Of a stretch of DNA of 34,422 nucleotides, positions 5,012-24,380 are shown piece after piece. A model generated the notes under the pieces. That model was not told the DNA's origin. It saw only the letters and a list, made by a program, of their open reading frames with translations, and did not search any database. Made by a program: the position numbers and the translations under genes. The DNA is from Patescibacteria group bacterium (lineage in GTDB: Bacteria > Patescibacteriota > Minisyncoccia > Ryanbacterales > GWA2-47-10b), in NCBI GenBank assembly GCA_038063855.1, contig JBBTUF010000001.1, positions 1 to 34,422 on the forward strand, in the 5' to 3' direction. Numbering within the stretch: position 1 is the first letter of the stretch; every line of letters starts with the position of its first letter.

Positions 5012-5012
5012 C

Positions 5013-6584: not shown

Positions 6585-6595
6585 TAAGGGTCTTT

Positions 6596-7405
6596 CTATT
6601 TCGCTTTTATAGATTTAATAAAAGCTTTTGCCTTATTTATATCGATGCGCTGTTGATAAGATTTAATATTGTGTTTATGAAACGCGCCCCCGTCTTTTTT
6701 CAGAGATGTACTTACAATAACGCCATTCGCGTAATGCAAGAGTCGACTAATATTCATCACGTCAGCTCCACTGCCTACAATAATCGCAGTTGATGGAAAT
6801 GCTTTACGAACCATTTCTAGCTCTTTCAATATGGGCGCATCACCAGTCCAACGCCCAGTCACTATAAGAGCGCTGGATTTAAATTTTACTGCGCGGCGCG
6901 CAGATTCAATAAGGTTATGGTGTGAAAATAGTTTTGCATGCTTAACATGGATATCTGAAAAAATGAGAATATTTTCAGCTCCTATGGAGCGCTTATATTT
7001 CAAAACTTCCGATGGGTTACCTTTGATTACTCCGTATGCCGTTTTTACAGTATCTACAAAGACAGGGATACGCACGAAGTCTGCTCTAACAATTTTTGCT
7101 ATGGATAGCGCTGACTTATAGTCATTCCAAAGAACACTAATGCCAAGTTTTATCTTTAAAGATGCCTTGACGTGTTGTGCGATAACAGTCATTGCAGAAA
7201 TAGTTGCCGGGTCTGTGAATTCCTTGTGTGGGATATCGTAATTATTTTCAATTATTACAGCATCAAAACCAGCTCGTTGGAAAGCTATAGCATCAGCTAA
7301 CGCATTTTTTGTAGCAATATTAAGCCCTGGGAATCCTGCGTATCCGGGCAGTGGTGGAAGGTGTACTGCACCTATAGTCAATATATTTTTTAGTTTATCT
7401 CGCAT
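6596..7405 (-). CDS. BtpA/SgcQ family TIM-barrel protein
   Basis: GAVHLPPLPGYAG..., AVIIENNYDIPH, DFVRIPVFV, SDIHVKHA, LIVTGRWTG, IVGSGA, VIVSTSLKKDG. Colinear with the BtpA family consensus as I remember it. Confidence 0.8.
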   Translation of the reverse strand: MRDKLKNILTIGAVHLPPLPGYAGFPGLNIATKNALADAIAFQRAGFDAVIIENNYDIPHKEFTDPATISAMTVIAQHVKASLKIKLGISVLWNDYKSALSIAKIVRADFVRIPVFVDTVKTAYGVIKGNPSEVLKYKRSIGAENILIFSDIHVKHAKLFSHHNLIESARRAVKFKSSALIVTGRWTGDAPILKELEMVRKAFPSTAIIVGSGADVMNISRLLHYANGVIVSTSLKKDGGAFHKHNIKSYQQRIDINKAKAFIKSIKAK

Positions 7406-7433
7406 TTCTATGTAGCATAATATATCGTATTTA

Positions 7434-7468
7434 AATAAAAAAAGCGAGCCAAAGAAATAAGCTCGCTT
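7434..7468 (-). terminator. rho-independent terminator of the amidotransferase/TrpD-like operon
   Basis: Minus strand reads agcgagc-ttatttctttg-gctcgct followed by TTTTTTTATTT. Confidence 0.6.
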
Positions 7469-7482
7469 TTGGAATTTCCATT

Positions 7483-8646
7483 TTATTTGGGAAGCCTTGA
7501 TCGAACATTTAGCATCTTCTCAAATGCTTGGCCACTATCATAAACGTCTTGTGCCATGGTATAGCATTTCTGCAAGTTATTAGCTTTGTCAGCAAGATAA
7601 AAAAGAAGTGCTGCATTAGCGAGGATCATCTTCAGAGGAGGTCCGGAGATCTCTCCCTTTAAAATTCCTAGGGAGAAATCGCCCTTACTCATTCCGCATG
7701 GGGGAGATATTGCCACAGATGAAATTGGATTTAAGCCGAAGTCCGCTGCATTTAGGCGATATTCACGGATTTTATTGTCTTGGAGTTCTGCGACTTGAGT
7801 GCCCCCCTCGCATATAGACACTTCGTCCACGCCTTCGTATTGGCTACCGCCAATGAATCCACGAACAAAAATGCCATGTTGAAGATCCGTAACACCGTGT
7901 TCGTTAAGAATTTGGTATGCTTCAGCAACTATACGCGGAGAAACAAGATGGTTTACTCCCAACACTCGCCGCGTCAAGAGACGAGGAGATAGGGGATTTG
8001 TTATGGGCCCAATAATGTCATTCATATGTGGGAGCATTGCGACTTTGTGGGTTTGGAGGTGAATCTGTTTGTATCGAGAGTCTAGAGCTTCCGTGTATCC
8101 AAATCCATCGGTTTCAATACACTTTTCGACTTCATTTTTTGTTGCGCACGTATTAATGCCGAGCAGAGAAACAAAGTCCGAACTACCATGACGACCGTTA
8201 TCTGCATTTGCGGGTGATCCATGCTTACACATCGAGATTCCTGAAGCCGCGGCAATAAATGCGGCTATTGTACTTACATTGGCCGTCACAATGAGATCTC
8301 CCCCCATTCCACAATTATCCATTGCGTAAGGGACATTAGGCTCGAGAAACCCAAATTTCGAAATCGCGATGTCACTACGGAATACTGCAGCACAGACGCC
8401 GGCGATTTGCTCCGCAGCATTTTTTGGCAAACGATGCCTGTGATTATTATGCTCTGATCTATTGCTTCGTTGCCAGGCATAGGTAGAACGAGTATGTAAC
8501 GCGGAGAGAGTTGCGATGCTCTGAATCTGTGCAAGTTGGTTCCCTGCACATCCCTCCAGAGCGTACTCTCCTAATGAGTACGCTTCGTCGAATGTGAGTG
8601 GTACATTCTGGTATGCATGATCTTTTAGAAAATGTTTGATTTCCAT
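7483..8646 (-). CDS. anthranilate phosphoribosyltransferase-like (glycosyl transferase family 3, TrpD-like)
   Basis: DNCGMGGD...NVSTIAAFIAAASGISMCKHGS...GSSDFVSLLGI parallels the TrpD pattern DTCGTGGD..NiSTaaAfvaAaaG..vaKHGnr..s.sGsaDvLeaLG. Start chosen at ATG 8646 (AGAAGGAGGGTGAAATG), which overlaps the upstream stop; the track start at 8700 is rejected. Confidence 0.75.
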   Translation of the reverse strand: MEIKHFLKDHAYQNVPLTFDEAYSLGEYALEGCAGNQLAQIQSIATLSALHTRSTYAWQRSNRSEHNNHRHRLPKNAAEQIAGVCAAVFRSDIAISKFGFLEPNVPYAMDNCGMGGDLIVTANVSTIAAFIAAASGISMCKHGSPANADNGRHGSSDFVSLLGINTCATKNEVEKCIETDGFGYTEALDSRYKQIHLQTHKVAMLPHMNDIIGPITNPLSPRLLTRRVLGVNHLVSPRIVAEAYQILNEHGVTDLQHGIFVRGFIGGSQYEGVDEVSICEGGTQVAELQDNKIREYRLNAADFGLNPISSVAISPPCGMSKGDFSLGILKGEISGPPLKMILANAALLFYLADKANNLQKCYTMAQDVYDSGQAFEKMLNVRSRLPK

Positions 8647-12153: not shown

Positions 12154-13179
12154 ATGAAACAAAACTTTAACGCATGGGATGTGAAGATAGAAGATTTTTT
12201 TGAGTTACAAACGGCTCAAGAAAAACTTTCTTTTCTTCTCAATTTTGCGGTTCTCGCACCATCGAGTCACAATAGCCAGCCGTGGTCGTTTCGCGTAACG
12301 AACAACGAGATAAAAATCTATGCCGATATGGCACGAAGTCTACCCGCAAGCGATACAAACAACCGCCAACTTTTGATTAGTTTAGGCTGTGTACTTGAAA
12401 ACATTTTAACTGCCGCAGAATATTATGGCTACGAGGTAAAAGTATCACTTCTCTCTGACACTGCCGACAATTCATGCATTGCAAGCATTGTATTTTCGGA
12501 AGCGCAAAACTATATTCGCCCCAAACATCATGCTATTTTTACAATACCAAAACGCCGCACCAATCGAACAAAGTACGACAACCGCCCACCCGAAGAAGAT
12601 TTTATTCAGTGGGTATCGAGCCTTGCGTCTGAAAACACCCAGTTTTTTTTAATTACCAACAAAACTAATAAAGATGCAATCGCAGATATTGTTATTGAAG
12701 CAGGCATCTCCGCAATGGAAAGCACAGACTTTCGACACGAATTGTCGCAATACGTAAAAAATAACTATACAAGCTCACCAATCGGAATGCCGCTGTATGG
12801 TTTTGGAGTACCCGGCCCAATCTCGCTTATAGCCCCTTTCATGATGAAATTTGTGAATATGAACAAAGTAAACGCAAAAACCGATAGCGATGTATTAAAA
12901 AACTACACGCCCGCAGTATTAGTTATTGCCACGCGTGACGATACTCGCAAAGAATGGCTTGAAACGGGGGCTCTCTACGAACGAATTGCGCTTGAAGCTG
13001 AACGCCGGGGTTTGAGCACTGCACCAAGTGCGGCGGTGATTCAAATAGGGGAGTTATATAAAAAACTTCAGGAAACACTCAAAACAAACTATCGCCCACA
13101 ATTCTTTGCGCGCGTTGGGTATGCTAAAGATACCACCAAACCAAGCCCACGCCTTGCGGCTAATATGGTTTTGAAATAA
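12154..13179 (+). CDS. Acg-type (tandem) nitroreductase-family FMN oxidoreductase
   Basis: LAPSSHNSQPWSF near the N-terminus, ~340 aa (double nitroreductase length), C-terminal ..ERRGLSTAP.. Confidence 0.7.
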   Translation: MKQNFNAWDVKIEDFFELQTAQEKLSFLLNFAVLAPSSHNSQPWSFRVTNNEIKIYADMARSLPASDTNNRQLLISLGCVLENILTAAEYYGYEVKVSLLSDTADNSCIASIVFSEAQNYIRPKHHAIFTIPKRRTNRTKYDNRPPEEDFIQWVSSLASENTQFFLITNKTNKDAIADIVIEAGISAMESTDFRHELSQYVKNNYTSSPIGMPLYGFGVPGPISLIAPFMMKFVNMNKVNAKTDSDVLKNYTPAVLVIATRDDTRKEWLETGALYERIALEAERRGLSTAPSAAVIQIGELYKKLQETLKTNYRPQFFARVGYAKDTTKPSPRLAANMVLK

Positions 13180-13188
13180 GTGTAGTTA

Positions 13189-13695
13189 TTAAATTCTCAC
13201 TCCTACTGCAGTTGCAAAAACTATCGCTACTGAAAGCAGTATCACCGTGTCTGCACCAATCCATAATGCTAAAAATCCGCCGCCTATCATGGAGAGTCCT
13301 ACAGCTACCTGTACAAAGCTATTATGCACTCCAATTTTCCCAGTAGCCCCGCTCGAGTAGTGAGCTATGAGTATTTGCTGCAGCGTCGCGAGAGAGGCTC
13401 CCAAAGCACCATAGAAAGTTTGCAGAACGTAGAGTGGAGCGTTAGGTACTAAATAGGCAAGCATCACCAACCCCTGCAACACAAGAGTCCACGAAAGCAC
13501 TCTTAAAGGATTTCTGTTCTCACAAGCCCATCCTACAAGGTATGTGGACGCTATTGACCCAAGCGACATAAGCCCAAAGAGCAACCCAAAAGCCTCCAGA
13601 CTATTGCCACGTCCTATAAGAATTTTGTACCACGCAGGCGTAAAAAGCCCAATGGCGAAATAAATAGCGAACTGAATATATGTGATTTTTTTCAT
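13189..13695 (-). CDS. small polytopic membrane protein (looks like half of an MFS-type transporter)
   Basis: Start taken at MKKITYIQFAIYF (ATG 13695). Five or six hydrophobic spans. The upstream 43 codons of the track ORF overlap the neighbouring gene and are rejected. Confidence 0.5.
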   Translation of the reverse strand: MKKITYIQFAIYFAIGLFTPAWYKILIGRGNSLEAFGLLFGLMSLGSIASTYLVGWACENRNPLRVLSWTLVLQGLVMLAYLVPNAPLYVLQTFYGALGASLATLQQILIAHYSSGATGKIGVHNSFVQVAVGLSMIGGGFLALWIGADTVILLSVAIVFATAVGVRI

Positions 13696-13777
13696 AATTA
13701 AATAAGATGAGAGGTGTTGGAAGGGACATTTAGTAACTAGATAAAAAGATTTAAAAAAAAATTTATAAAAAATATCT

Positions 13778-14449
13778 CTAGAGACCGCTTCCTTCCAAGA
13801 TTTGTTTTGAGCTTGTTCTGGCAAGTTTGTCGAGAGTAATATGATGTTTGCTCATAAATTTTTGAACAATTAGATACCCAAGTCGGTAGCCAATCCAGTT
13901 TGGTAATTCTCCTGACGCGTAAAACCATTCTCCTTGAAGTTTTAACTGCTCAGATATACTTCTTTTTTGAAGAAGTTGTTCCTTTACTTCATGCCAAAGG
14001 GCTTGTTCATTTTTAATTTTTTGAATATACAAGATTTTCCGTTTTGGCAAAATAGATTGTTCAATAAAACAACCTATGCCTTCATCTATAAAAATATCCA
14101 GAAGAGTGTTCCAATCACCGACGGCTTTTACTCGAACAACATGAGAAACTTCATGATACATAGTTAAAGGTAACTCAGTCTTAATTATTGTATCAATGTT
14201 CTTTTTCGAAAAACAAATCTTAAAATCTATGCGCGATGATCCACCGAATGTAATTGCCGCAAGATGCATTTTGGGATGGATTTCCCACGCTTCAGCTCCA
14301 AATATAGCCACATTAATATGCTGTTTGTATTTTAAAATTTGCATGGCTTCACTTAACCCCTCGAATGCATGAACAGAAACTGCTAAACGATACTTCGCAG
14401 GGATTCCAATAAGATGAATATTGCCATTTTTACAAACACGATTAGTCAT
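13778..14449 (-). CDS. predicted Zn-dependent protease (HExxH, DUF2268-like)
   Basis: LTMYHEVSHVVRV (HExxH) followed by IDEGIGCFIEQ, a possible third-ligand Glu. 223 aa. Confidence 0.55.
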   Translation of the reverse strand: MTNRVCKNGNIHLIGIPAKYRLAVSVHAFEGLSEAMQILKYKQHINVAIFGAEAWEIHPKMHLAAITFGGSSRIDFKICFSKKNIDTIIKTELPLTMYHEVSHVVRVKAVGDWNTLLDIFIDEGIGCFIEQSILPKRKILYIQKIKNEQALWHEVKEQLLQKRSISEQLKLQGEWFYASGELPNWIGYRLGYLIVQKFMSKHHITLDKLARTSSKQILEGSGL

Positions 14450-14478
14450 ATGTTCTATATATAATATAAAATAATATT

Positions 14479-14506
14479 CCCTGTGGTGCCCTTCGTCACC
14501 ACAGGG
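14479..14506 (-). terminator. perfect 10-bp hairpin after the precursor ORF (terminator or mRNA-stabilising stem)
   Basis: ccctgtggtg / caccacaggg with an 8-nt loop, 9 nt after the precursor stop. The minus-strand tail AATATTATTTTA is A/T-rich but not a clean U-tract. Confidence 0.5.
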
Positions 14507-14515
14507 ATTTTCTCG

Positions 14516-14650
14516 TTAACCTTTTCCGCAAGTACCACCGCCACTGCAAGCGCCACCACTACGAAGTGAGTAAACTTGTTTATCGCCCGTGTATGGCCGA
14601 ACCTTTGCTGTGACTTGCGCGGCTGTTTTACGCATTACAGACTTTTTCAT
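14516..14650 (-). CDS. RiPP precursor peptide, 44 aa, TOMM/LAP-type (MKKSVMRKTAAQVTAKVRPYTGDKQVYSLRSGGACSGGGTCGKG)
   Basis: Hand-translated from the minus strand: ATG at 14650, TAA at 14518-14516. AGGAGGTG lies 8 nt upstream. It begins 39 nt after the stop of the SagB::YcaO gene on the same strand. The core-like tail contains only Gly, Ala, Cys, Ser, Thr and Lys. Confidence 0.7.
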   Translation of the reverse strand: MKKSVMRKTAAQVTAKVRPYTGDKQVYSLRSGGACSGGGTCGKG

Positions 14651-14689
14651 AAGCTTCACACCTCCTATCAGGCCTTGTTGGCGTTTACT

Positions 14690-16900
14690 TTACGCAAAGA
14701 AGTGTGGAATTGAAGGGTATTCCATATTCCACTTTAATCCTACTACAGCCATTCTTGGATGTCCAAAGTGCTCGCTACCATAACCAAAATTGATAGGCAT
14801 GAGTTTTTCAGACAATACTCGAACAACTGTGAGTCCACAGTCATACTCCTTAGGAGTGATATTAACTACGATTGGATCAAAGCGACTTAAATCACCACTA
14901 AAATCTTTAGGAGGAATCTGATTTCCATTTGCCTCAAGGAGCCACTCGGCATATACAAGGTTCTTGGGATCCGAGTAGAAAAGTCCATGATCGTCGGGGC
15001 TTTGTACATCCCTTATATCCATGTTGCGCTTTTGCTTACGCCCATGCCATGTCATTGCCATAAATTCTGCTTCATTAAATGCTCTTTCTGCGGCGTCAAT
15101 AAAAATTGATCTACAACTTGCCCCAGAAAATAGCGCTGGCCGCTTATCTCGCGACCAAATGACAACCAATATAACTGGCTGGCCATCAAGCGTTAGGTCA
15201 AGAAAAGATACTTTATAACCAAGCTCCTCCCAAACCAAAACTCGCTCTCTTACAGTATTCGAAAAGTATTCATGCGAAATTGCATTGACATGGCGCTTGG
15301 CATACCAAGTCACACTAATTGCATCTCTTTCGATTAGCTCACAGAGAGCCGCCTCAACCGCTAATTGCTTTTCAAAGTGAGCCGCAACGCCGCTTGAATT
15401 GGCGCGATAGAAAATTTTTCTATCACCTTGGATGCCAGTACATGCATAGAATACGAGCTCTGTAGGAACCCACACCCTAGCACCAGTAACTTCGCGTGCT
15501 CCAATTACCCATCCAATTTTTTCCCGAGGATCAAATCGTTTGATATCTTTCAAAATTTTGCCTTGGGCTGGCATGTATGGCACGACAGTGCGCGGGTCAA
15601 GAAACGCCTCATTAAGCTTTAGCGCGCATTCAATGCGATCATTTCGCTGCTGTTCTAACGAATACCGCTCAAAACCTTCGGCCAGCACCTTGACAACTGC
15701 TTCGCTCGACGTAGAACCCGTCGCAAATGCACGACACCTTTTCTTCGTAGGAGTGGCAGCATATTTATAAGGAGGGGAATACAACGCAACCGCTCCCCAT
15801 TGAGACATTACATTACCATTTACTTCTGGCTCCCAAAAGAAAACGCTCCTAATAGGCTTGTTATGCCCGACGAGTGTACGGCGAAGATGATTTGCACTTT
15901 CAACTATTTCTTGATCGGCTCTATGGGCTTTTATTCCGCTACGATCTTTGGTTCCCACAATAAGGGTTATAGCAACAACCTCATTGGAAGACTGCAAACC
16001 AAGCTCTCGCGCTAATGCTTTATCATTGAATCCGCTATACTCGACAATACCTAAGTCTTGTTCGGCACAAAACAGATACGCATTCTGAGCAGCATGTCCA
16101 GCTTCAAGCATAATGTGTCGATACCCACGATTAGCATATTTCGATATAGTGCGTTTAAGATTTACTGCGATGCAAAGTATGTACGCGGCATGCTCCAAAA
16201 GCATTTTTGTATTAAATACTTTTGTGAGCCACACATTTGGATTTTTCTCAGAAATGACCGTCACTACACGATCCTCAGGATTCCAACGATATATCCCTAT
16301 TGGAAGTGACTGGCTGTCTCCATGGACAATTAGATATAGATCGAGCGGATACATCGCACCGCCCGATGGTACACTCCAATGCCCATTTTCTCCTATGCCA
16401 TATGTCGCTTCAAGTAGCCCCGATAATTTATTTCCTGGGATCTGACCGTCTTGGAATTGTCGAATAGATTGCCGTTTATGAATAACATCCAAGGTGTTAC
16501 TTTTATCTGGCACTGGAAGCCGAATAATTCTACCATCACGTTCGCGCAGACGTTGAGATTTCATGATTAATGCTGCATCATTCACGCCAAGATCATATGA
16601 GAAAATTCCAGGATTTGCGGAGTCTTCATGAAACCCAATATGAAGTTCTCGGCTATCTCGAACGATTCCTTGAGTTTCAAGGAGCTCTAATAATTTGAAG
16701 ATCTCTTCGGTAGTCATTGATCGTAATTTATCCACAATATCGCGAACACTGGTCATTCCAGTACAGAGACGAAGAAGTTTTCTGATCTTCACTGCCTTGC
16801 CTGAGAGCGTAATGATTCCTTTACGCCCGATAAACTGAAGCTCGTTTCTCTTGCTTGAATAGCCATAAAGTACGACAAGAGGTTGCGAATTCGCCTGCAT
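14690..16900 (-). CDS. fused SagB-type FMN dehydrogenase :: YcaO cyclodehydratase with an N-terminal wHTH (RRE-like) segment
   Basis: Nitroreductase/SagB motifs: KRQSIRQF, VPSGGAMYPLDLYLIV, MLEAGHAAQNAYLFCAEQDLG. YcaO motifs: AFATGSTSSEAVVKVLAEGFERYS, NSSGVAAHFEKQLAVEAALCELIERDA. Start set at ATG 16900 (AAGGAG 7 nt upstream) rather than the track start at 17002. Confidence 0.88.
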   Translation of the reverse strand: MQANSQPLVVLYGYSSKRNELQFIGRKGIITLSGKAVKIRKLLRLCTGMTSVRDIVDKLRSMTTEEIFKLLELLETQGIVRDSRELHIGFHEDSANPGIFSYDLGVNDAALIMKSQRLRERDGRIIRLPVPDKSNTLDVIHKRQSIRQFQDGQIPGNKLSGLLEATYGIGENGHWSVPSGGAMYPLDLYLIVHGDSQSLPIGIYRWNPEDRVVTVISEKNPNVWLTKVFNTKMLLEHAAYILCIAVNLKRTISKYANRGYRHIMLEAGHAAQNAYLFCAEQDLGIVEYSGFNDKALARELGLQSSNEVVAITLIVGTKDRSGIKAHRADQEIVESANHLRRTLVGHNKPIRSVFFWEPEVNGNVMSQWGAVALYSPPYKYAATPTKKRCRAFATGSTSSEAVVKVLAEGFERYSLEQQRNDRIECALKLNEAFLDPRTVVPYMPAQGKILKDIKRFDPREKIGWVIGAREVTGARVWVPTELVFYACTGIQGDRKIFYRANSSGVAAHFEKQLAVEAALCELIERDAISVTWYAKRHVNAISHEYFSNTVRERVLVWEELGYKVSFLDLTLDGQPVILVVIWSRDKRPALFSGASCRSIFIDAAERAFNEAEFMAMTWHGRKQKRNMDIRDVQSPDDHGLFYSDPKNLVYAEWLLEANGNQIPPKDFSGDLSRFDPIVVNITPKEYDCGLTVVRVLSEKLMPINFGYGSEHFGHPRMAVVGLKWNMEYPSIPHFFA

Positions 16901-17066
16901 GGTCTTGCTCCTTTCGATAAATTTTAAAAATACAGGCCTTAGCACGGAATCCAATAGAATATAAGCAGGTTTAAGACAAAATATCCAGCTTATCGGCACC
17001 ACTCCATTTGATGCACATTCAGCTTTAATATTTTTGTCACAATAATCTTTATGTTAAACTATCCAT

Positions 17067-18011
17067 ATGCCCCAAGCGCGAACCCAACAAATCAATGAGA
17101 TAATAAAAGACCTCGAAGACCTCAAAAAACGGGGTTTTGAGAACATGTATGCGCTTGATGAAAATATAGAATTTTTTGAAGCAATGCACTCGCCGATACA
17201 ATATATACGATGGTTTTTAAATGAACGGCCAAAAATTGACGGCTCGCGACTTTTAGAACTTTCGGATTTTCCTCTCGGGCATGGTCGGTGGGAGGCGATA
17301 TTACAAGCCGAACTTTTAGAAATTGAACAATGGAAATTTCCCGACAATCTTGCTCGTTTTCGTAAATCAATGCTTGGCGTATTAGAACATCTTAAATCTG
17401 ATAAGAGATTAGTTTTATTGAATCTTGGATGTGGCCCAATGGAGTTAGAGCGGCAAATTATTAAAAATTATCTTGAAAACAAAAATCAGCAGAAAGTTGT
17501 TTTTATTGGCATCGACATGTCAGACGCTTCTCTTGCTCTGGCCGAAAAAAATATTCAAAGCATACACATTCCACTCGAAAAAGTATCGACACTCAATACC
17601 ACTGTGCTCAATGAACTTAGCGCCAAACATGCTCATGATCAATTTTATACTGTTTTATTCAAGGGTGATGCAACAAAGGCCGATCAGTATTTTAAAAAAG
17701 GCGAAGTAGATATATTATTGTATACAAAATTCAGGCATCATTTAACTCCTGACCAAAGAATCAATTTTGATAAAATGGTCACGGATATATCAGATCATGT
17801 TATTGAGGACGATCTTTTAAATAATCTTTTTATGTTTACAGTTCCGTTGATTGGGCGTTCTCAATGGAAACACTCTGTTCTGCTAAATGGCGGAATGTTT
17901 AGTGCTCTGCGATGCCCTACAAAAAAAGATGTACAACAATTACTGCCGGGCTGGTCTATCAAAACTGCACCAGATGGCTATACAAAGGTGTACGATGTGT
18001 GTTTAAAATGA
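17067..18011 (+). CDS. class I SAM-dependent methyltransferase
   Basis: VLLNLGCGPMELE (motif I) and VVFIGIDMSDASL (motif II acidic residue). Divergent from the SagB::YcaO gene. Confidence 0.65.
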   Translation: MPQARTQQINEIIKDLEDLKKRGFENMYALDENIEFFEAMHSPIQYIRWFLNERPKIDGSRLLELSDFPLGHGRWEAILQAELLEIEQWKFPDNLARFRKSMLGVLEHLKSDKRLVLLNLGCGPMELERQIIKNYLENKNQQKVVFIGIDMSDASLALAEKNIQSIHIPLEKVSTLNTTVLNELSAKHAHDQFYTVLFKGDATKADQYFKKGEVDILLYTKFRHHLTPDQRINFDKMVTDISDHVIEDDLLNNLFMFTVPLIGRSQWKHSVLLNGGMFSALRCPTKKDVQQLLPGWSIKTAPDGYTKVYDVCLK

Positions 18012-18081: not shown

Positions 18082-18849
18082 ATGCTTGCAATTATTATTT
18101 CAAAATTAGAACCATTTGAAACTGGCGCGCGCATAATAGCAGATGATTGTAAATCAGTATCTCTTAGTGCAAAAATTCTATTTTTAGAGGATATTATTCT
18201 GGGGAGTAACGCAATTGAGTTGCTTGATGGCGTCAAGATCCTTTATTTTTTAACAAATGATTCGTCTCTTGAACGATATGTCGAGTACTTCGTTCGTAAA
18301 AATATATTGGTAATCAATAAGGATTTTTATCGTTGGAATAGATCAAAGTTCTCAATTCAAGATCGTCTTAAGCTTGCTGGTATACAAATTCCGAGATCTA
18401 TCGCCACTCAAAATTTCTCGATTTTACTTTCCGAGAGTCGGTTTTTGGATTTCCCTCTATATATAAAGAGTCAGAATCAATCTAGTTTGGTTATTAAAGT
18501 CGCAGACGAAGAAGCGCTCAGACGCGCTTTGTCAGACATAACACAGCGAAATGATTTCTATTTAGAACAATCCGTTGATGCTGAGTGCGGCTCTGTAACA
18601 AAATATTATTTCGTAGATAGATTATCGTGCGGGATAAATGGGGATTTGTCTCCACCAATAATATCATCTGTATTAAAATCTATTTCTACAATTCTGAGTC
18701 TTGATGTTTTTTCAGTCGATCTATTTGTGGGAGATGATAAAAAGTCTTATTGGTGCATCGATGTAAATCCTGCGCCCGGTCTTTTTAATTCAAAACATGG
18801 CCGCTCAGAATTCATTAAATATGCTCAGCGCTTAGATCATCACTTATAA
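18082..18849 (+). CDS. ATP-grasp fold enzyme (small, RimK/ITPK-like)
   Basis: KFSIQDRLKLAGIQIPRS, FPLYIKS..SSLVIKV, FYLEQSV, and C-terminal FSVDLFV..YWCIDVNPAPG (the ATP-grasp E/N Mg-binding region). Confidence 0.6.
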   Translation: MLAIIISKLEPFETGARIIADDCKSVSLSAKILFLEDIILGSNAIELLDGVKILYFLTNDSSLERYVEYFVRKNILVINKDFYRWNRSKFSIQDRLKLAGIQIPRSIATQNFSILLSESRFLDFPLYIKSQNQSSLVIKVADEEALRRALSDITQRNDFYLEQSVDAECGSVTKYYFVDRLSCGINGDLSPPIISSVLKSISTILSLDVFSVDLFVGDDKKSYWCIDVNPAPGLFNSKHGRSEFIKYAQRLDHHL

Positions 18850-19354
18850 CAAGACGTTCAATCATCGGTTGTACTATCATAAAATAGCGTTTAAGATTAT
18901 CATATTTTAGTATAGCAACAACCTCATTAATCGGAACCCATTTTAATTGATCTCTTTTGTGTTCCGCCTTGAATTTACTCCTGTTTACTGGGCGCATGAG
19001 GTACATATGTGTCAAAATCGTTCGACTATCGTTATGGAGATATTCAAGTGGTATTAATTTCGCAAAAATTTCAACAATAAGACCAGTTTCTTCTTCTACC
19101 TCTCTTTTTGCTGCTCTAGCTGGCGTTTCTCCAGCTTCGATGTGACCTTTTGGGAAAGTCCAATCTTGTTGTTTCGCGCGATATAATAAAGCAACTTTAG
19201 GAATTTTATTTTTTTGTATTACAATACCGCCCGCCTTATAGACGACCTGTTTTTCTGGTCTTTCGGGTATATACATAAGGTAGATTAAAAAATGTCCTCT
19301 CTTGTAAGATTTTACCAGAGAGGACAATCGGGTTTCAAGTGCAAAGCGATCCAC
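18815..19354 (-). CDS. NUDIX hydrolase
   Basis: Complete Nudix box GHIEAGETPARAAKREVEEETGL. An alternative start at ATG 19276 would remove the overlap with the upstream gene. The 3' end overlaps the ATP-grasp 3' end by 35 nt (convergent). Confidence 0.85.
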   Translation of the reverse strand: MDRFALETRLSSLVKSYKRGHFLIYLMYIPERPEKQVVYKAGGIVIQKNKIPKVALLYRAKQQDWTFPKGHIEAGETPARAAKREVEEETGLIVEIFAKLIPLEYLHNDSRTILTHMYLMRPVNRSKFKAEHKRDQLKWVPINEVVAILKYDNLKRYFMIVQPMIERLVISDDLSAEHI

Positions 19355-19880
19355 TATTATTAGTTAAATGCGAGATGAGAGCTGCGCATTCTTGTACCTG
19401 AAGCTCGTCGTTATTAGTACCAGTAAACGCCCACTCAATTTCTGACATTAAGCAACGAAAACTTTCATCAAAACTAGCATGCCAGTAATGAGTTCTCTTG
19501 ATATCGAGGACTCTATCGAGAGGGCTATTTCTGGCATTTCGCACTATCTGTGGCGTAAAAACCCCTGTAAGAATTGCTCTTCGCCCCGATGACTTGATTA
19601 CGTCCCATTCAAGAGGATTGTGGACAGCATCAAGAACAATTTTAGGCACAGACACTATCTTCGCAAGTACCATTGCCATCAATTCTGAAGAACCAACTGT
19701 TCTGTAAATATTTCGATACCATTGAATTGACTCGATCGATTCAGGTGAGGAAAAACTTTTACCAAATAGCTCTTCAAGGATATGGCGCTTGTTTACGTGC
19801 GTCCATTCAAAATAAGTTTCAAAAATACGAGACAAATGACTCTTGCCACACCCGTGTAGCCCTGTTAAAACTATAATCAT
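19335..19880 (-). CDS. P-loop NTPase / small-molecule or nucleotide kinase-like protein
   Basis: N-terminal Walker A MIIVLTGLHGCGKSHL, 181 aa. The start overlaps the radical SAM stop by 4 nt. Confidence 0.65.
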   Translation of the reverse strand: MIIVLTGLHGCGKSHLSRIFETYFEWTHVNKRHILEELFGKSFSSPESIESIQWYRNIYRTVGSSELMAMVLAKIVSVPKIVLDAVHNPLEWDVIKSSGRRAILTGVFTPQIVRNARNSPLDRVLDIKRTHYWHASFDESFRCLMSEIEWAFTGTNNDELQVQECAALISHLTNNSGSLCT

Positions 19881-21061
19881 AGAGCATCCCTTTCTTGTGC
19901 GTTCGTTGACTCTTGTTTAACAAGTGCAATCGCCAAACAATTTGTACAGGGACCATTGGTGCTGGCATTATGTATCGGCAGATTACGACGGAGTGCTGAA
20001 ATATGGTCTGACTTAACAAGCCGTTTCCATATTATGGTAAATTTTTCTTGCAGCAAATTTCCAACGTTTGCTTCTCCGAGAGGGCCAAGGAATCCACACG
20101 TTTGTACTTTTCCATTTGGCAGAATAACGAGACCGCGATGACCCGCACTACAACTGTGACGAGTGAACGGTAAAACGACTCGCGTTTCTATTATTTTCTC
20201 GCGAAAATAATGACCATGAATTAACCCGCGAGAATCTGAAAGATAATATGAGAGTTCCGATTCAAGTTTCATATAATCTTTTTTTGTTAATATTTCGGAC
20301 ACATCGTAAGCAGACCTTCCTGAAGGGATAAATCTCCGAATGAAGACTGCAACGCCGAGACCATGGAGATATTCTGTGAGTGTGATGATATCGTCCATAT
20401 TGGATCTCATAACAACGGCGTTGATCCGAACACTAATTCCGTACGACTGCAGAGCGTGAATACCTTCCATCGCACGATCGAAACTTCCTTGTCCTCGTAT
20501 CTTATCATGGACTTTTTTGGTGCCATCAATACTAACGATAGCAAGGTGAAGTAACTTCGATATCCTCTCCATCCTTAACCCCTTTGTTAGAATGCCATTT
20601 GTACCCAAGGAGATACGTAAATGACTTTCCGAGGCAAAAATCATTAGATCTTCGAGATCTGCTGAAAGCGTCGGCTCCCCACCAGTAAAACGAATTTCTT
20701 GGACACCGCATGCGATAAGATCTTGAATTATTTTAAGACGCTCTTTTAGAGAAGCTTCATCTACTAATTTGATGCCCGAGCTATTAAAACAGTGAGCGCA
20801 TCGCAAGTTGCATGCACGAGTTATTTCAAAGAACACCACATCAGGAGCACTAAAATTATCATTTGGAAGCCATTCGGGGTAGGTTATATGTAGTTCACCT
20901 CCCATACCTAACTTAAGCAATAACTCCTCTGCTACTGGGTCGTTACGCCTTGCCACCGTTTCAAATTCGAGTTGGTCGAGATAGGTGCGTAGTCCAGTAT
21001 GCGGCGCAAAGAGCGTTCCCCCAAAACATTCTTGTCTGAGCTTCAGTATTGGTCGCTTCAT
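19877..21061 (-). CDS. radical SAM / SPASM-domain maturase
   Basis: EITRACNLRCAHCF (CxxxCxxC), FTGGEPTL, and a C-terminal Cys cluster CSAGHRGLVILPNGKVQTCGF...NGPCTNCLA (SPASM-like). About 80 aa of N-terminal extension precede the cluster. AAGGAG RBS. Confidence 0.85.
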   Translation of the reverse strand: MKRPILKLRQECFGGTLFAPHTGLRTYLDQLEFETVARRNDPVAEELLLKLGMGGELHITYPEWLPNDNFSAPDVVFFEITRACNLRCAHCFNSSGIKLVDEASLKERLKIIQDLIACGVQEIRFTGGEPTLSADLEDLMIFASESHLRISLGTNGILTKGLRMERISKLLHLAIVSIDGTKKVHDKIRGQGSFDRAMEGIHALQSYGISVRINAVVMRSNMDDIITLTEYLHGLGVAVFIRRFIPSGRSAYDVSEILTKKDYMKLESELSYYLSDSRGLIHGHYFREKIIETRVVLPFTRHSCSAGHRGLVILPNGKVQTCGFLGPLGEANVGNLLQEKFTIIWKRLVKSDHISALRRNLPIHNASTNGPCTNCLAIALVKQESTNAQERDAL

Positions 21062-21099: not shown

Positions 21100-21700
21100 A
21101 GCGTTAAGAGTACACCATAAAGGTAGGCTGTGTCAACTACCACGGCCTCACGGCCGTGGCTTGTTATTGAGATTTGGAGTTGAATGCAGGCTTCGCCTGT
21201 CCGCCATCCTCTCTGCCTTGCATGTCTATGTACTTCCGAATCATTGCTTCGTTGATGCCTACGGTGGAAACAAAGTAGCCTCCTGACCAAATACCGTCCT
21301 CTCCCCAATAGACATCTTTGAGAAAAAGAAACTTCTTTCGCATGGCACGGCCAGTATTGCTTTTGATAATATTGATCACCTTGCTTACTGAGAATCGTGG
21401 TGGAATAGAGACGAGGAAATGGATGTGGTCCTTGTCTGTCCTGGCTTTCTCTATTCGTATGTCAGGATAGTATTTCGAGATCTCCTTGAGTTGTTGTGAC
21501 GCAATACTGGCCTACTCCCTCAGTGAAGATTTTACGACGGTATTTGGTCGTCATGACTACATGGTATTCGGTTCCATAGACACAATGTCCCTGACGGCGA
21601 TACTCCATTGTTCAAGAATACCATGAGGATGGCGGATCCTATCCTTCCCCAGCCTCACGGCTGGGGCTTGCCGGTGGAAGAGTCAACGCGTCGTAATGTA
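21100..21700 (-). mobile_element. IS200-type (IS200/IS605 family, tnpA only) insertion sequence; ends approximate
   Basis: Y1/HUH transposase gene flanked by two subterminal perfect hairpins with identical TCAC loops: ccacggcc-tcac-ggccgtgg (21140-21159) and ccccagcc-tcac-ggctgggg (21647-21666). No terminal inverted repeats, as expected for this family. Confidence 0.7.
21164..21608 (-). pseudogene. tnpA: IS200 tnpA (Y1 HUH transposase) with a +1 frameshift
   Basis: N-terminal frame: MEYRRQGHCVYGTEYHVVMTTKYRRKIFTEGVGQY.., which hits TGA. C-terminal frame: ..SIASQQLKEISKYYPDIRIEKARTDKDHIHFLVSIPPRFSVSKVINIIKSNTG...GYFVSTVG..RKYI. The frames join if one G is removed from GGAGTAGGCCAG (about 21505-21516). 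Confidence 0.8.
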
Positions 21701-21903: not shown

Positions 21904-23586
21904 GTGGGCATTTACGTATTTACAATGCAATTTGACGGTTCATTTTTTACTCTGATTGTCGCTGCCTTAGCTATAGCAATAAATTTATTGCTCGGTTTAG
22001 TCGTATATATAAATGACAGACGCAGTGCCACTACAAGAATATTTGGCCTTTTAAATATAGTACTCGCTTTATATCTACTAACAAACTTTCTTAGTATTAT
22101 TCGCACTGATTATTACGAAAAACTTCTCTGGGTAAGATTGACGATATGCGCTGCCGTATTGCTTGGAACAACTTTTCATTATTTTATTAGAGCCTTTCCT
22201 GAAAAAATTCTTAAAGTATCTCTTACAGAGAAGATAATTAGTTTTTTTATAACCACAGGCGTTGCAATGCTAACACTTACGCCGTATGTGTTTTCTGGCA
22301 TTGTTATCACTGACCCGAAAGGCGTACCAACACCTAATGTTGAATTCGGTATTATTATTTTTGGAATTACGGTATTTATTTATACGCTGAGCGGGATTTC
22401 TCTGTTGATAAAAAAATATTTATATTCGAAAGCTTTAGCAAAAAATCAGATCAAGCTACTTTTGATTGGTGCGGGAATAATGTTTTTTGCATTTTTGCTC
22501 TTAAACTTTATCGCCGTTGTAGCCCTGAATACAACATTTTTTATTAGCTTTACTCCTTTATATACCTCGATATTTATTGCTTTTGCAACATATGCAATCA
22601 TAAAGCACCATCTATTCAATGTTAAAGTAATCGCGACCGAAGTACTGGTATTTGGTCTTTGGTTATTGCTTCTCGTTCGAGCTATCACAGCAAATTCTAT
22701 AGGCGATCAAATTATTAGTGTATTAGTATTTTTAGGATCGATTATTGTCGGCATTTTACTTATTCGTTCAGTTTTTAAAGAAGTAAAAATACGTGAAGAA
22801 ATGTCGCAACTAGCGCTTGATCTTGAAATTACAAACAAGGAGCTCAAACAGCTCGACGAGGCAAAGTCTGACTTTATTTCGATTGCGAGCCACCAACTGC
22901 GCACACCACTCTCGATTATCAAAGGGTATATTTCAATGATGCGCGAGGGCACATACGGCAAAATAAATGAAAAAATTGCCGACCCATTGCACAAAGTATA
23001 TGTATCGAACGAGCGCCTCATAAATTTGGTAAGCGATCTTCTCGACCTCTCACGTATGGAGCGCGGCAAAATGCAATACGAATTTTTGCCAATTCGTCTT
23101 GCAGAAGTTGCCGAGGGCATTGTGCTTGATTTTGAAAAAGTAGCGAAAGACAAAGGCCTCACATTCGAGTGGGATCGCGGAAAGGTAAATGATTTAATAA
23201 AGGGCGACGCCGGCAAACTCCGCCAAATAGTGCTCAACCTTGTCGACAATGCCATAAAATATACTCAAGCGGGCGGTATTCGTGTTGCGCTCGAATCAGT
23301 ACCCGGAAATAAAATCCGCTTTTTGGTGACCGATTCAGGGCCGGGCTTAACTACCTCCGAAGCACATGCGCTTTTTCAAAAGTTTTCGCGTGGGCAAGAA
23401 GAAAGCAAGACACACACCGAAGGGCTTGGGCTTGGGCTTTATGTCGCAAAACTTATCGCAAGTGCACACGGCGGAGAACTTGCGGTAACTTCTCCTGGAA
23501 AAGGCAAGGGGAGTACCTTCTCGCTCACCCTGCCAATCTATAGCGAATCTGCCGAAAGCTTCAAAAAATTCGCCGGGGATATTTAA
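21904..23586 (+). CDS. sensor histidine kinase with a multi-spanning membrane N-terminal half
   Basis: HisKA H-box SDFISIASHQLRTPLSIIKGY; N-box LVDNAIKYT; G-boxes DSGPGL and GLGLGLYV. Eight or so hydrophobic spans in the first ~290 aa. Start uncertain (GTG 21904 vs ATG 21925). Confidence 0.88.
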   Translation: MGIYVFTMQFDGSFFTLIVAALAIAINLLLGLVVYINDRRSATTRIFGLLNIVLALYLLTNFLSIIRTDYYEKLLWVRLTICAAVLLGTTFHYFIRAFPEKILKVSLTEKIISFFITTGVAMLTLTPYVFSGIVITDPKGVPTPNVEFGIIIFGITVFIYTLSGISLLIKKYLYSKALAKNQIKLLLIGAGIMFFAFLLLNFIAVVALNTTFFISFTPLYTSIFIAFATYAIIKHHLFNVKVIATEVLVFGLWLLLLVRAITANSIGDQIISVLVFLGSIIVGILLIRSVFKEVKIREEMSQLALDLEITNKELKQLDEAKSDFISIASHQLRTPLSIIKGYISMMREGTYGKINEKIADPLHKVYVSNERLINLVSDLLDLSRMERGKMQYEFLPIRLAEVAEGIVLDFEKVAKDKGLTFEWDRGKVNDLIKGDAGKLRQIVLNLVDNAIKYTQAGGIRVALESVPGNKIRFLVTDSGPGLTTSEAHALFQKFSRGQEESKTHTEGLGLGLYVAKLIASAHGGELAVTSPGKGKGSTFSLTLPIYSESAESFKKFAGDI

Positions 23587-24323: not shown

Positions 24324-24380
24324 TTAGTGGTAGTCTTTAGCGTAACAAATTCCTTAACAATTTCATAGGAGGTGACTAAA

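What the first reader, a model, noticed from the sequence alone, without database searches (positions are those of the whole stretch)
14690..16900. Single-polypeptide SagB dehydrogenase :: YcaO cyclodehydratase with an RRE-like N-terminus and no adjacent E1-like partner
One 736-aa ORF carries three parts. First, a helix-rich wHTH-like segment (GKAVKIRKLLRLCTGMTSVRDIVDKLRSMTTEEIFKLLELLETQGIV). Second, a SagB-type nitroreductase-fold domain (KRQSIRQF, PSGGAMYPLDLYLIV, MLEAGHAAQNAYLF). Third, a YcaO domain (ATGSTSSEAVVKVLAEGFERYS, AAHFEKQLAVEAALCELIERDA, tail ..YPSIPHFFA). In the characterised azole-forming systems I know, B (dehydrogenase) and D (YcaO) are separate proteins, and D is partnered with or fused to an E1-like C protein. 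Here B and D are fused, and the only ThiF-like gene in the window (2205-3401) is about 11 kb away. Leader recognition may therefore reside in the N-terminal wHTH of the fusion.
Basis: partly seen in the sequence, partly recalled or inferred. Interest (0 to 1): 0.75.

Follow-up and report, generated by a model that had tools for sequence, protein, structure and literature searches.

The report
One-protein azole peptide synthetase cassette
A single 736-residue protein joins a peptide-docking domain, an oxidising domain and a ring-forming domain, and sits next to a small glycine/cysteine-rich peptide gene and a protease gene, so this looks like a stripped-down three-gene factory for a thiazole-containing peptide, an unreported layout of a well-known pathway.

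Summary
ORF 14690-16900 (minus strand, 736 aa) contains three domains. The N-terminal domain is predicted, with high model confidence, to have the RRE fold. The middle domain is a SagB-type FMN dehydrogenase with the catalytic Lys-Tyr pair. The C-terminal domain is YcaO.

The fusion is not an assembly artefact. All 150 best 50%-identity clusters found in 1.84 billion proteins span the SagB-YcaO junction.

- A 44-aa precursor gene lies 39 nt downstream (14516-14650, minus strand): MKKSVMRKTAAQVTAKVRPYTGDKQVYSLRSGGACSGGGTCGKG.
- A terminator-like hairpin follows it.
- A DUF2268 HExxH metalloprotease gene comes next (13778-14449).

The fusion, a Gly/Cys-core peptide and DUF2268 co-occur in about 20 independent loci, down to 25-30% protein identity. 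No E1-like or ThiF gene does. The ThiF-like gene 11 kb away is the N-terminal half of an Rv1355c-type protein and is unrelated to the cassette.

Best reading: a minimal linear azole peptide (LAP/TOMM) cassette, in which the fusion's own RRE docks the leader. This is a new architectural variant of a known kind. YcaO + nitroreductase + peptidase LAP clusters in CPR bacteria, and RREs fused to dehydrogenases, were already described. No chemistry has been shown.

The parts
14690..16900 (-). Gene for the 736-aa tri-domain protein (RRE - SagB dehydrogenase - YcaO cyclodehydratase), including the stop codon at 14690-14692
   Evidence: ORF and translation. Pfam and NCBIfam domains. 82 full-length homologues. 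AlphaFold model with pLDDT 88.9 and pTM 0.84. Foldseek matches to LynD/TruD/MusD, BmdC, McbC/McbD and ThcOx.
16908..16912 (-). Shine-Dalgarno AGGAG, 7 nt before the ATG at 16900
   Evidence: Read directly from the sequence.
16655..16900 (-). aa 1-82: RiPP recognition element (RRE; beta strands followed by three helices, winged helix-turn-helix)
   Evidence: Model of aa 1-104 has pLDDT 91.2, with strands 7-9, 12-15, 20-25 and 28-33 and helices 36-44, 52-58 and 64-76. Best PDB matches are the N-terminal RRE region of TruD (E 8e-4), LynD, the PbtF RRE domain (TM 0.73 on target, rmsd 2.8 A), TigE, ThcOx and McbB. A sequence profile gives only weak hits to wHTH regulators, MusD 41-81 and PbtF.
16496..16654 (-). 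aa 83-135: helical connector between the RRE and the nitroreductase fold (conserved DSRELY..FHEDS.NP motif)
   Evidence: Alignment A1 with D82/S83/H91/P97 nearly invariant. Helices 83-95, 97-100 and 106-114 in the model. BmdC aligns from query residue 51 onward.
15941..16495 (-). aa 136-320: SagB-type FMN-dependent azoline dehydrogenase domain
   Evidence: TIGR03605 scores 99.9 bits against a cut-off of 78.4. R143/S145/R147, K254-Y255 and E266/G268/H269/N273 are invariant or nearly so. K254-Y255 aligns with McbC K201-Y202, which are the catalytic residues per PMC6395948.
15866..15940 (-). aa 321-345: inter-domain linker (the least conserved segment)
   Evidence: Mean pairwise identity is 0.23, against 0.37-0.41 for the catalytic domains. 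Helix 327-343 in the model. In L030 the gene boundary of the unfused relatives falls here.
14693..15865 (-). aa 346-736: YcaO cyclodehydratase domain ending in the conserved tail YPSxPHFFA
   Evidence: PF02624 scores 140.7 bits. TIGR03604 is the best NCBIfam hit. Invariant residues are K404, E408, E411, E521, E524, R525, D526, E610, E612, P732 and H733. Structural matches to LynD, TruD, MusD, McbD and archaeal YcaOs.
14661..14665 (-). Shine-Dalgarno GGAGG, 10 nt before the precursor ATG
   Evidence: Read directly from the sequence.
14516..14650 (-). Precursor peptide gene, 44 aa: MKKSVMRKTAAQVTAKVRPYTGDKQVYSLRSGGACSGGGTCGKG. Basic leader with a K-V-R-P-Y motif and a Gly-rich core with two Cys.
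   Evidence: ORF. Positional and sequence homologues lie downstream of the fusion in L002, L006, L007, L008, L019, L089 and L090 with the core RSGGAC(S/P)GGG(T/S)CG(K/R). Core codons differ mostly synonymously: 9 synonymous against 1 conservative change in 13 codons between the window and L089 (counted by eye on the DNA). More distant family members carry other Gly/Cys-rich cores.
14478..14507 (-). Intrinsic-terminator-like hairpin (11-bp stem, 7 G-C pairs) followed by a T-rich tail, directly after the precursor stop codon
   Evidence: I read similar hairpin-plus-T-run sequences after the precursor gene in L009, L089, L090 and L091 (sequences); the terminator scan was not run on those loci.
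13778..14449 (-). DUF2268 predicted zinc metalloprotease (HEVSH ... EG); candidate leader peptidase
   Evidence: PF10026 scores 71.3 bits. Homologues lie next to the fusion in about 20 loci (Pfam annotation). In the alignment the two His and the Glu of HExxH are invariant in all 17 rows. The downstream Glu-Gly is kept in all but the two most divergent rows, L091 and L030.

Best explanation
The region is a compact three-gene cassette for a linear azole-containing ribosomal peptide (LAP/TOMM class).

Proposed steps:
1. The 44-aa precursor is translated.
2. The beta-strand-like K-V-R-P-Y stretch of its leader docks onto the N-terminal RRE of the 736-aa enzyme.
3. The YcaO domain uses ATP to cyclodehydrate the two core cysteines to thiazolines. 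It may also act on the Ser or Thr next to them, in A-C-S and G-T-C-G.
4. The covalently attached SagB domain oxidises the rings to azoles with FMN, through the Lys254-Tyr255 pair.
5. The DUF2268 zinc protease removes the leader.

The expected product is a short, glycine-rich bis-azole peptide that resembles a miniature microcin B17.

In this view the E1-like or Ocin-ThiF partner of classical systems is replaced. Its docking role is taken by the RRE fused to the dehydrogenase, and fusion of the dehydrogenase to YcaO provides the scaffold.

Shown here: domain identities, the catalytic motifs, the RRE fold (predicted), conservation of the fusion, and the conserved neighbourhood of precursor and protease.

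Inferred: leader binding by this RRE, independence from a partner, azole chemistry, the protease's role, and the product's activity.
For: - Domain calls.
- Lys-Tyr aligned with McbC K201-Y202, which are catalytic per PMC6395948.
- Invariant YcaO acidic motifs and the P-H-F-F tail.
- RRE fold, with the best PDB matches being RREs of azoline-forming systems.
- High-confidence full-length model, pTM 0.84.
- A precursor with SD and a terminator-like hairpin in the window, and an SD also in L009, L089, L090 and L091. Its core is conserved under purifying selection.
- Gly/Cys-rich cores next to relatives of 25-40% identity, including a 77-aa peptide with 13 Cys, and a recurrent leader motif (KVRPY, VRSY, TRRPY, KRTPY, TRVPY).
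- DUF2268 is the only other gene co-conserved with the fusion. ThiF, MFS, methyltransferase, radical SAM and kinase genes never are.
- Unfused relatives in L030 have RRE-SagB and YcaO as overlapping adjacent genes, together with a precursor and an HExxH protein.
- The literature describes LAP clusters in CPR with YcaO, nitroreductase and peptidase (PMC7298704).
Against: - No biochemical data exist for any member.
- The YcaO domain scores below the curated SagD-family cut-off (150.9 against 219.25 bits), so it is a divergent branch.
- RREs fused to dehydrogenases have been called possibly vestigial (PMC7470986). Here the RRE is less conserved (0.31 mean identity) than the catalytic domains.
- A partner encoded elsewhere in the genome cannot be excluded with at most 10 kb flanks.
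- No exporter or immunity gene is conserved with the cassette.
- The most distant branch (Paraburkholderia-like L092) has a Cys-free neighbouring peptide, so the chemistry may differ across the family.
- The precursors match no curated family.
Confidence: 0.72

Rival explanations
1. The cassette is a LAP pathway, but the fusion still needs an E1-like or Ocin-ThiF partner encoded elsewhere in the genome. The N-terminal RRE would be vestigial, or would serve only the dehydrogenase step.
For: RREs on dehydrogenases of cyanobactin, LAP and thiopeptide clusters are described as possibly vestigial. Most characterised azoline-forming YcaOs are potentiated by a C or F protein. Only 10 kb or less of flank could be examined per locus.
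Against: No such gene is co-conserved in any of about 25 loci with usable flanks. The RRE is retained in all homologues, with invariant G48/S83 and a well-folded model. The leader motif is conserved across distant members, which implies a reader for it. CPR genomes are small, and the cassette is otherwise self-contained.
Confidence: 0.15
2. The YcaO domain carries out a different amide activation (thioamide, amidine or peptide cleavage). Alternatively, the SagB domain performs non-azoline chemistry, as proposed for the trifolitoxin/tiarin TfxB/TfxC enzymes. Either way the product would not be an azole peptide.
For: The YcaO superfamily catalyses several reactions. MusD, a YcaO with ATP-dependent peptidase activity, is among the structural matches. 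The SagD-family score is sub-threshold. TfxB/TfxC are RRE-bearing SagB homologues thought to make a fluorophore. The L092 branch has a Cys-free peptide.
Against: The SagD family is by far the best YcaO-type match: 150.9 bits, against 62.5 bits for the thioamidation family. No TfuA appears among the neighbours. The azoline-oxidase Lys-Tyr pair is invariant. Cores have Cys flanked by Gly, like microcin B17. There is no paired TfxB/TfxC arrangement and no conserved Gln motif.
Confidence: 0.08
3. The enzyme acts on a housekeeping protein rather than on the adjacent small ORF (for example a ribosomal protein, as some database names imply: 'ribosomal protein S12 methylthiotransferase accessory factor'). 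The small ORF would then be fortuitous.
For: Some sources give that generic name. The flanking genes are mostly housekeeping.
Against: That name is the generic one attached to YcaO proteins (my knowledge). The small ORF is conserved in position, has an SD, and its core evolves under purifying selection across loci. A dedicated protease co-occurs with it.
Confidence: 0.03

Closest known systems
Microcin B17 synthetase McbBCD with precursor McbA (E. coli)
   Same: Both have a YcaO cyclodehydratase plus a SagB-type FMN dehydrogenase with the same catalytic Lys-Tyr (PMC6395948). Both use a leader-guided precursor whose core consists of Cys/Ser in glycine runs. The window's GGGTCG and its relatives' GGGSCG resemble McbA's GGSCG sites (from my knowledge of McbA). 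Leader removal is by a metalloprotease that is not a catalytic part of the synthetase.
   Different: McbB (E1-like, bearing the RRE), McbC and McbD are three separate proteins in an octamer. Here there is no E1-like protein, the RRE sits on the dehydrogenase, and B and D form one chain. The peptide is much shorter, with two Cys. The protease is DUF2268 encoded in the cassette, not TldD/E.
Cyanobactin heterocyclases LynD/TruD/PatD with the oxidase ThcOx
   Same: The domain order RRE - middle domain - YcaO in one polypeptide resembles LynD/TruD, and Foldseek aligns the query over about 840 columns with LynD. The N-terminal RRE is the best structural match. ThcOx is a SagB-type oxidase carrying N-terminal RRE-like domains.
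   Different: In LynD/TruD the middle domain is E1-like and catalytically inert. Here it is an active-looking nitroreductase-fold dehydrogenase. This system shows no macrocyclase, no PatA/PatG proteases and no cassette-type precursor.
Trifolitoxin/tiarin clusters (TfxB, TfxC, TfxE)
   Same: The only RREs in the cluster sit on SagB-type FMN dehydrogenases, and the YcaO (TfxE) has no E1-like partner (bioRxiv 10.64898/2025.12.02.691738; PMC4603692).
   Different: TfxB/TfxC form a pair of separate proteins thought to build a Gln-derived fluorophore, and the YcaO is a separate accessory enzyme. Those precursors share a conserved Gln motif. Here there is a single SagB domain fused to YcaO, and the cores are Gly/Cys.
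LAP clusters reported in CPR genomes (Sharrar et al. 2020, mBio, PMC7298704)
   Same: Same organisms (Parcubacteria, Microgenomates) and the same gene set: YcaO, nitroreductase, peptidase and an adjacent precursor. [quoted passage not shown]
   Different: That paper describes the nitroreductase and YcaO as neighbouring genes, and its example precursor has 84 aa. The text I read does not mention a fused RRE-SagB-YcaO polypeptide, its RRE or the absence of a C protein. Some of those 89 clusters may nevertheless belong to this family.
Partner-independent YcaOs of bottromycin biosynthesis
   Same: YcaO enzymes that work without an E1-like or Ocin-ThiF partner (PMC4603692).
   Different: Those are stand-alone YcaOs that use a follower peptide. 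They have no fused RRE or dehydrogenase, and one of them forms an amidine macrocycle.

Membership tests
LAP/TOMM azole synthetase | YcaO-superfamily cyclodehydratase domain with intact nucleotide/Mg-binding acidic motifs | tested here: met
   PF02624 scores 140.7 bits over profile positions 3-320 of 325. K404/E408/E411 and E521/E524/R525/D526 are invariant in 34 homologues. Structural matches to LynD, TruD, McbD and archaeal YcaOs.
LAP/TOMM azole synthetase | Score above the curated cut-off of the SagD-family model TIGR03604 | tested here: not met
   150.9 bits against a cut-off of 219.25. It is the best-scoring YcaO-type family but sub-threshold, so this is a divergent branch.
LAP/TOMM azole synthetase | SagB-type FMN dehydrogenase with the catalytic Lys-Tyr pair | tested here: met
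   TIGR03605 scores 99.9 bits, above the 78.4 cut-off. K254-Y255 is invariant and aligns with McbC K201-Y202.
LAP/TOMM azole synthetase | E1-like C protein (discrete or fused to D) or an Ocin-ThiF-like F protein in the cluster | tested here: not met
   There is no room for an E1-like domain between aa 320 and 346. The only ThiF-like protein in the window is Rv1355c-type (NF005901, 323.5 bits) and gives no TOMM C/F model hit at E<=0.001. No ThiF homologue occurs in 91 related loci. None is annotated in the loci.
LAP/TOMM azole synthetase | Adjacent short precursor gene with leader and a Cys/Ser/Thr-containing core | tested here: met
   Window 14516-14650. Conserved counterparts across the family.
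LAP/TOMM azole synthetase | Azol(in)e rings in the mature peptide | not testable with these tools
   This requires expression and mass spectrometry.
RiPP recognition element (PqqD-like RRE) | N-terminal beta-sheet followed by three helices (winged helix-turn-helix) resembling known RREs | tested here: met
   Model with pLDDT 91.2 and the topology strands 7-33 then helices 36-76. The nine best Foldseek matches are RRE-containing proteins: TruD, LynD, the PbtF RRE domain and TigE.
RiPP recognition element (PqqD-like RRE) | Significant sequence-profile match to a known RRE family | tested here: inconclusive
   Only weak hits were found: wHTH regulator E 0.014, MusD N-terminus E 0.41 and PbtF E 1.1. 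Pfam wHTH families are sub-threshold. RRE-Finder/HHpred models were not available.
RiPP recognition element (PqqD-like RRE) | Binds the leader of the cognate precursor | not testable with these tools
   Structure-prediction jobs were exhausted, so no complex was modelled. This needs a binding assay or a complex prediction.
Trifolitoxin/tiarin-type cluster | Paired TfxB and TfxC RRE-SagB homologues and a conserved Gln motif in the precursor | tested here: not met
   There is a single SagB domain per cassette. The precursor cores are Gly/Cys with no conserved Gln.
Thioamide-forming YcaO-TfuA pair | TfuA gene adjacent to ycaO | tested here: not met
   No TfuA was found among the window neighbours or among annotated genes of related loci. 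The thioamidation family TIGR03266 scores only 62.5 bits.

The most novel reading that the evidence does not exclude
This family is a self-sufficient, single-polypeptide azole synthetase. The FMN dehydrogenase domain, together with its N-terminal RRE, has taken over both jobs of the E1-like C protein: docking the leader and activating YcaO. Cyclodehydration and oxidation would then be channelled within one chain, probably a homodimer.

Together with a roughly 40-aa precursor and a DUF2268 protease, it forms the smallest known complete LAP pathway, about 3.1 kb. The cassette is widespread in ultra-small CPR bacteria and produces miniature microcin-B17-like peptides. These peptides could be weapons against hosts or competitors, or signals. 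A 7TM histidine kinase recurs within a few kb of the cassette in several lineages.
Probability: 0.5. Interest if true: 0.65.

Novelty: new variant of a known kind. Interest (0 to 1): 0.55.

Why it matters
Azole installation normally needs two to four cooperating proteins. How the non-catalytic E1-like partner activates YcaO is still debated. A natural enzyme with the partner absent, and the dehydrogenase covalently attached, would show that the partner's role can be supplied in another way.

It would also give a one-gene tool for putting thiazoles into designed peptides. The leader tag would be short: the conserved motif lies within about 20 residues.

It would further define the main, and very compact, ribosomal-peptide pathway of CPR/Patescibacteria. 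These organisms have almost no other secondary metabolism, and their interactions with hosts are poorly understood.

A distant member occurs in a cultured Paraburkholderia (WP_342946556.1), and the cassette is small enough to synthesise, so the questions are directly testable.

Tried and rejected
- **Assembly artefact or frameshift between the domains.** Rejected. Eighty-two homologues have both domains, and 150 of 150 top representative clusters span the junction.
- **The ThiF-like gene at 2205-3401 as the missing partner.** Rejected. It is the N-terminal half of the Rv1355c family. It never co-occurs with the fusion.
- **Window-specific neighbours as part of the system.** This covers the methyltransferase-like gene 17067-18011, the RimK-like gene 18082-18849, NUDIX, the P-loop kinase-like gene, radical SAM/SPASM 19877-21061, the MFS fragment 13189-13824 and the Acg nitroreductase. 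None has a homologue near other fusions. They are therefore treated as unrelated, or at most strain-specific.
- **Sequence-only identification of the RRE.** Pfam and PDB profile searches gave only sub-threshold hits. Structure prediction was needed.
- **C-terminal tail compared with solved YcaOs by sequence.** Nothing useful came back. The comparison of PHFFA with the TOMM proline-rich tail therefore rests on my memory only.
- **Precursors against NCBIfam.** No family matched.
- **Genome-collection scan with the single protein.** Only four Taylorbacteria loci were found. The profile scan of metagenomes was far more productive.
- **Literature.** A search for hyphenated terms such as YcaO-SagB or nitroreductase-YcaO found zero papers. 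The Chem Rev 2017 YcaO review could not be opened.
- **L061-type locus.** No DNA was available for it.
Full report
**1. Observation**

The window has a 2,211-nt ORF on the minus strand at 14690-16900, encoding 736 aa. A longer GTG-initiated version reaches 17002.

The ATG at 16900 is preceded by AGGAG at 16908-16912. It coincides with the N-terminus of all homologues, so 736 aa is the real product.

Domain calls:
- Pfam finds Nitroreductase at aa 140-316 (69.4 bits) and YcaO at aa 394-696 (140.7 bits, nearly the full profile).
- NCBIfam places the middle domain in the SagB family, TIGR03605, at 99.9 bits against a cut-off of 78.4.
- NCBIfam's best match for the C-terminal domain is the SagD family, TIGR03604. 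Its 150.9 bits is below the strict cut-off of 219.25.

**2. The fusion is real and common**

A word-indexed search of 5.8 billion proteins returned 82 homologues. All carry both Pfam domains, and almost all are 710-750 aa long. Where named, they come from Taylorbacteria, Uhrbacteria, Parcubacteria, Minisyncoccia and other Patescibacteria.

An exhaustive profile search of 1.84 billion cluster representatives listed 150 best hits, all with E < 1e-135. Every one spans the SagB-YcaO junction, and 135 are at least 623 aa long.

A distant branch includes a protein of cultured Paraburkholderia ferrariae.

Relatives with the two halves as separate, overlapping adjacent genes also exist. In L030, RRE-SagB is 4998-5972 and YcaO is 5969-7492. 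These align to window residues 3-318 and 339-717 respectively. The gene boundary falls in the least conserved segment of the fusion, aa 321-345, where mean identity is 0.23.

**3. Anatomy of the protein**

An AlphaFold2 model built on 34 homologues is confident, with pLDDT 88.9 and pTM 0.84.

*N-terminal domain.* Residues 1-82 form beta strands followed by three helices. A separate model of aa 1-104 has pLDDT 91.2. Its best matches in the PDB are the following:
- the RRE-bearing N-termini of TruD (E 8e-4) and LynD;
- the isolated RRE domain of the Ocin-ThiF-like protein PbtF (TM 0.73 on the target, rmsd 2.8 A);
- then TigE, ThcOx and McbB.

Sequence alone gives only weak hints.

*SagB domain.* It keeps the RxSxR phosphate-binding motif (R143, S145, R147). 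It also has an invariant Lys254-Tyr255. This pair aligns exactly with Lys201-Tyr202 of McbC, the residues that deprotonate the azoline (PMC6395948).

*YcaO domain.* It keeps invariant K404/E408/E411, E521/E524/R525/D526, E610/E612 and a C-terminal P-H-F-F-A. From my knowledge of the family, the glutamates are the Mg-ATP ligands. Also from memory, a conserved C-terminal tail is typical of azoline-forming YcaOs. I could not verify the tail comparison.

*Whole-model comparison.* The full model matches LynD/TruD/MusD, the NRPS azoline oxidase BmdC, McbC, McbD, ThcOx and archaeal YcaOs. There is no space for an E1-like domain.

**4.

Thirty-nine nucleotides downstream of the stop codon, on the same strand, lies a short gene preceded by GGAGG at 14661-14665. 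An ATG at 14650 opens a 44-codon ORF:

MKKSVMRKTAAQVTAKVRPYTGDKQVYSLRSGGACSGGGTCGKG

An 11-bp G+C-rich hairpin with a T-rich tail follows at 14507-14478. Next comes a DUF2268 gene, annotated as a predicted Zn-dependent protease, at 13778-14449 (PF10026, 71.3 bits).

*The same arrangement recurs.* The order fusion, a gap of about 250 nt, then DUF2268 is seen in Taylorbacteria and other contigs. In each case the gap holds a homologous peptide gene. Examples:
- MKTKKPPNPPKGVKVSVRSYKDIPGTRCTRSGGACPGGGTCGK
- ...KVRRYKSSSLGHSCRSGGACSGGGSCGR
- ...VKISPYEGNQHSVFSCRSGGACSGGGTCGR

*Purifying selection.* The core codons differ mainly at synonymous sites, including switches between AGY and TCN serine codons. 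By my count on the DNA, the window and L089 show 9 synonymous changes and 1 conservative change over 13 codons. This indicates selection at the peptide level.

*More distant relatives.* Fusion relatives of 25-40% identity have other small ORFs beside them. These also have Cys embedded in glycine runs. Examples:
- ...SRGNGGGQGCNGHSGGGGNGGGQGCGRGR
- ...ACVTGGGGCSCDDGTSE
- a 77-aa peptide with 13 Cys

A leader motif recurs in these peptides: KVRPY, VRSY, TRRPY, KRTPY, TRVPY.

*Co-conservation.* A phmmer screen of all ORFs in 91 fetched loci found DUF2268 next to the fusion in about 20 loci. It found no homologue of the window's ThiF-like, Acg, MFS, methyltransferase-like, RimK-like, kinase-like or radical SAM genes. 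In an alignment of 17 DUF2268 proteins the His, Glu and His of HExxH are invariant. A downstream Glu-Gly is kept in all but the two most divergent rows.

**5. The ThiF-like gene**

The protein encoded at 2205-3401 matches the N-terminal half of the Rv1355c family (323.5 bits). The Acg-type nitroreductase at 12154-13179 matches the C-terminal half of that family. Neither matches the TOMM C or F models. They are a separate, split pair and not partners of the fusion.

**6. Mechanism proposed**

- The leader's beta-strand-like motif docks on the RRE.
- YcaO cyclodehydrates the core Cys, and possibly the adjacent Ser or Thr, using ATP.
- The tethered SagB domain oxidises the azolines with FMN.
- DUF2268 removes the leader.

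Only the parts list and its conservation are shown here. Binding, chemistry and partner independence are inferred. I put 0.72 on the cassette being an azole-peptide pathway built in this way, and about 0.5-0.6 on true independence from any E1-like partner.

**7. Comparison with what is known**

The reviews and genome surveys that I could read describe these arrangements:
- separate B, C and D proteins;
- C-D fusions;
- F-protein systems;
- PatG-oxidase fusions;
- C-less YcaOs in the bottromycin and trifolitoxin pathways.

RREs fused to dehydrogenases are known and have been called possibly vestigial. In trifolitoxin/tiarin clusters, the only RREs sit on the SagB homologues TfxB and TfxC, while the YcaO TfxE has none.

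LAP clusters with YcaO, nitroreductase, peptidase and a precursor have been reported in 93 CPR genomes (PMC7298704).

I found no paper that describes a fused RRE-SagB-YcaO polypeptide. The library is incomplete, however, and I could not open the main YcaO review.

The finding is therefore a new architectural variant of a known system, not a new kind of system. The defining E1/Ocin-ThiF feature of classical TOMM synthetases was tested and not met. The curated SagD cut-off is also not reached. I therefore file it as [quoted passage not shown].

**8. Verdict**

The system extends to a conserved three-gene cassette. Interest is moderate, at 0.55. The pathway class and its presence in CPR are already known. 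The single-chain, partner-less architecture with the sole RRE on the dehydrogenase, the very small cassette, and the conserved leader and core families appear unreported and are directly testable.

Noticed in passing
window 2205-3401 (+) and 12154-13179 (+): The ThiF-like protein matches the N-terminal half of the Rv1355c family (profile positions 9-345 of 722). The Acg-type FMN nitroreductase matches the C-terminal half of that family (profile positions 371-654). The two genes lie 9 kb apart, so they form a split version of a protein that is fused in mycobacteria. Between and around them lie an RNHCP-domain gene, an aromatic amino-acid ammonia-lyase, a PaaK-like ligase, BtpA, a TrpD-like phosphoribosyltransferase, a chorismate mutase-methyltransferase fusion and TrpRS. 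This may be an aromatic-metabolite gene neighbourhood.
   Followed up: partly
window 21164-21379 (-) and 21462-21608 (-): Two short ORFs match the C-terminal and N-terminal parts of the IS200-like Y1 transposase PF01797. They represent a disrupted transposase gene in the 840-nt gap upstream of the radical SAM operon.
   Followed up: partly
window 18815-21061 (-): A radical SAM/SPASM protein (394 aa, with about 70 aa ahead of the radical SAM core) lies in one co-directional, overlapping run with a P-loop kinase-like protein and a NUDIX hydrolase. Its best matches are mycofactocin-, sactipeptide- and NirJ-type maturases, all far below their cut-offs. This may be a second peptide- or cofactor-maturation system. 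No precursor was identified, and it is not conserved near other fusions.
   Followed up: partly
window 21904-23586 (+); L091 6279-7937; L030 9024-11219; L089 5542-7209; L006 5067-5891 and 9183-10874; L085; L043: A histidine kinase with an N-terminal 7TM region (HisKA_7TM) recurs within a few kb of the fusion cassette in several independent loci. No response regulator was seen next to it in the window. The association could be chance, or the kinase could be a sensor linked to the peptide.
   Followed up: partly
L009 2770-2930: The peptide gene after the fusion has a family-typical leader in one frame (MSASRKKAGKLSIRVTFRPYRGTDP...). A Cys-rich, core-like sequence (GLCDDCSDDCGGSCQYSG) lies in the +2 frame. 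This is probably a one-base assembly error near a homopolymer run. A real frameshift was not excluded.
   Followed up: no
L092 7782-7913 and 10202-10876: In the most distant branch (25% identity), which includes Paraburkholderia ferrariae WP_342946556.1, the neighbouring 43-aa peptide has no Cys (MKKEVTPPQGANKDAKRFTWSATFKQRQEQGKQVPAGSGGGGK). A 2OG-Fe(II) oxygenase follows the fusion, and there is no DUF2268. The chemistry may differ in this branch.
   Followed up: partly
L030 5969-6250: The unfused YcaO of L030 carries an extra N-terminal stretch of about 90 aa. It has no Pfam match, and one segment (DIQETISDLIKQGILQ) resembles helix 3 of the RRE. It may be a second RRE on the D protein of split systems.
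   Followed up: no
window 13189-13824 (-): A truncated-looking MFS transporter ORF (211 aa from a TTG start) matches only the first half of the MFS_1 profile. It overlaps the 3' end of the DUF2268 gene by 47 nt. It is not conserved beside other fusions. It may be a remnant or a strain-specific exporter.
   Followed up: partly
window 24372-26348 (+): A 658-aa secreted-looking protein combines a lipase/LCAT-like alpha/beta-hydrolase N-terminal half with a Cys-rich DUF4215 repeat region. It is unrelated to the finding.
   Followed up: no
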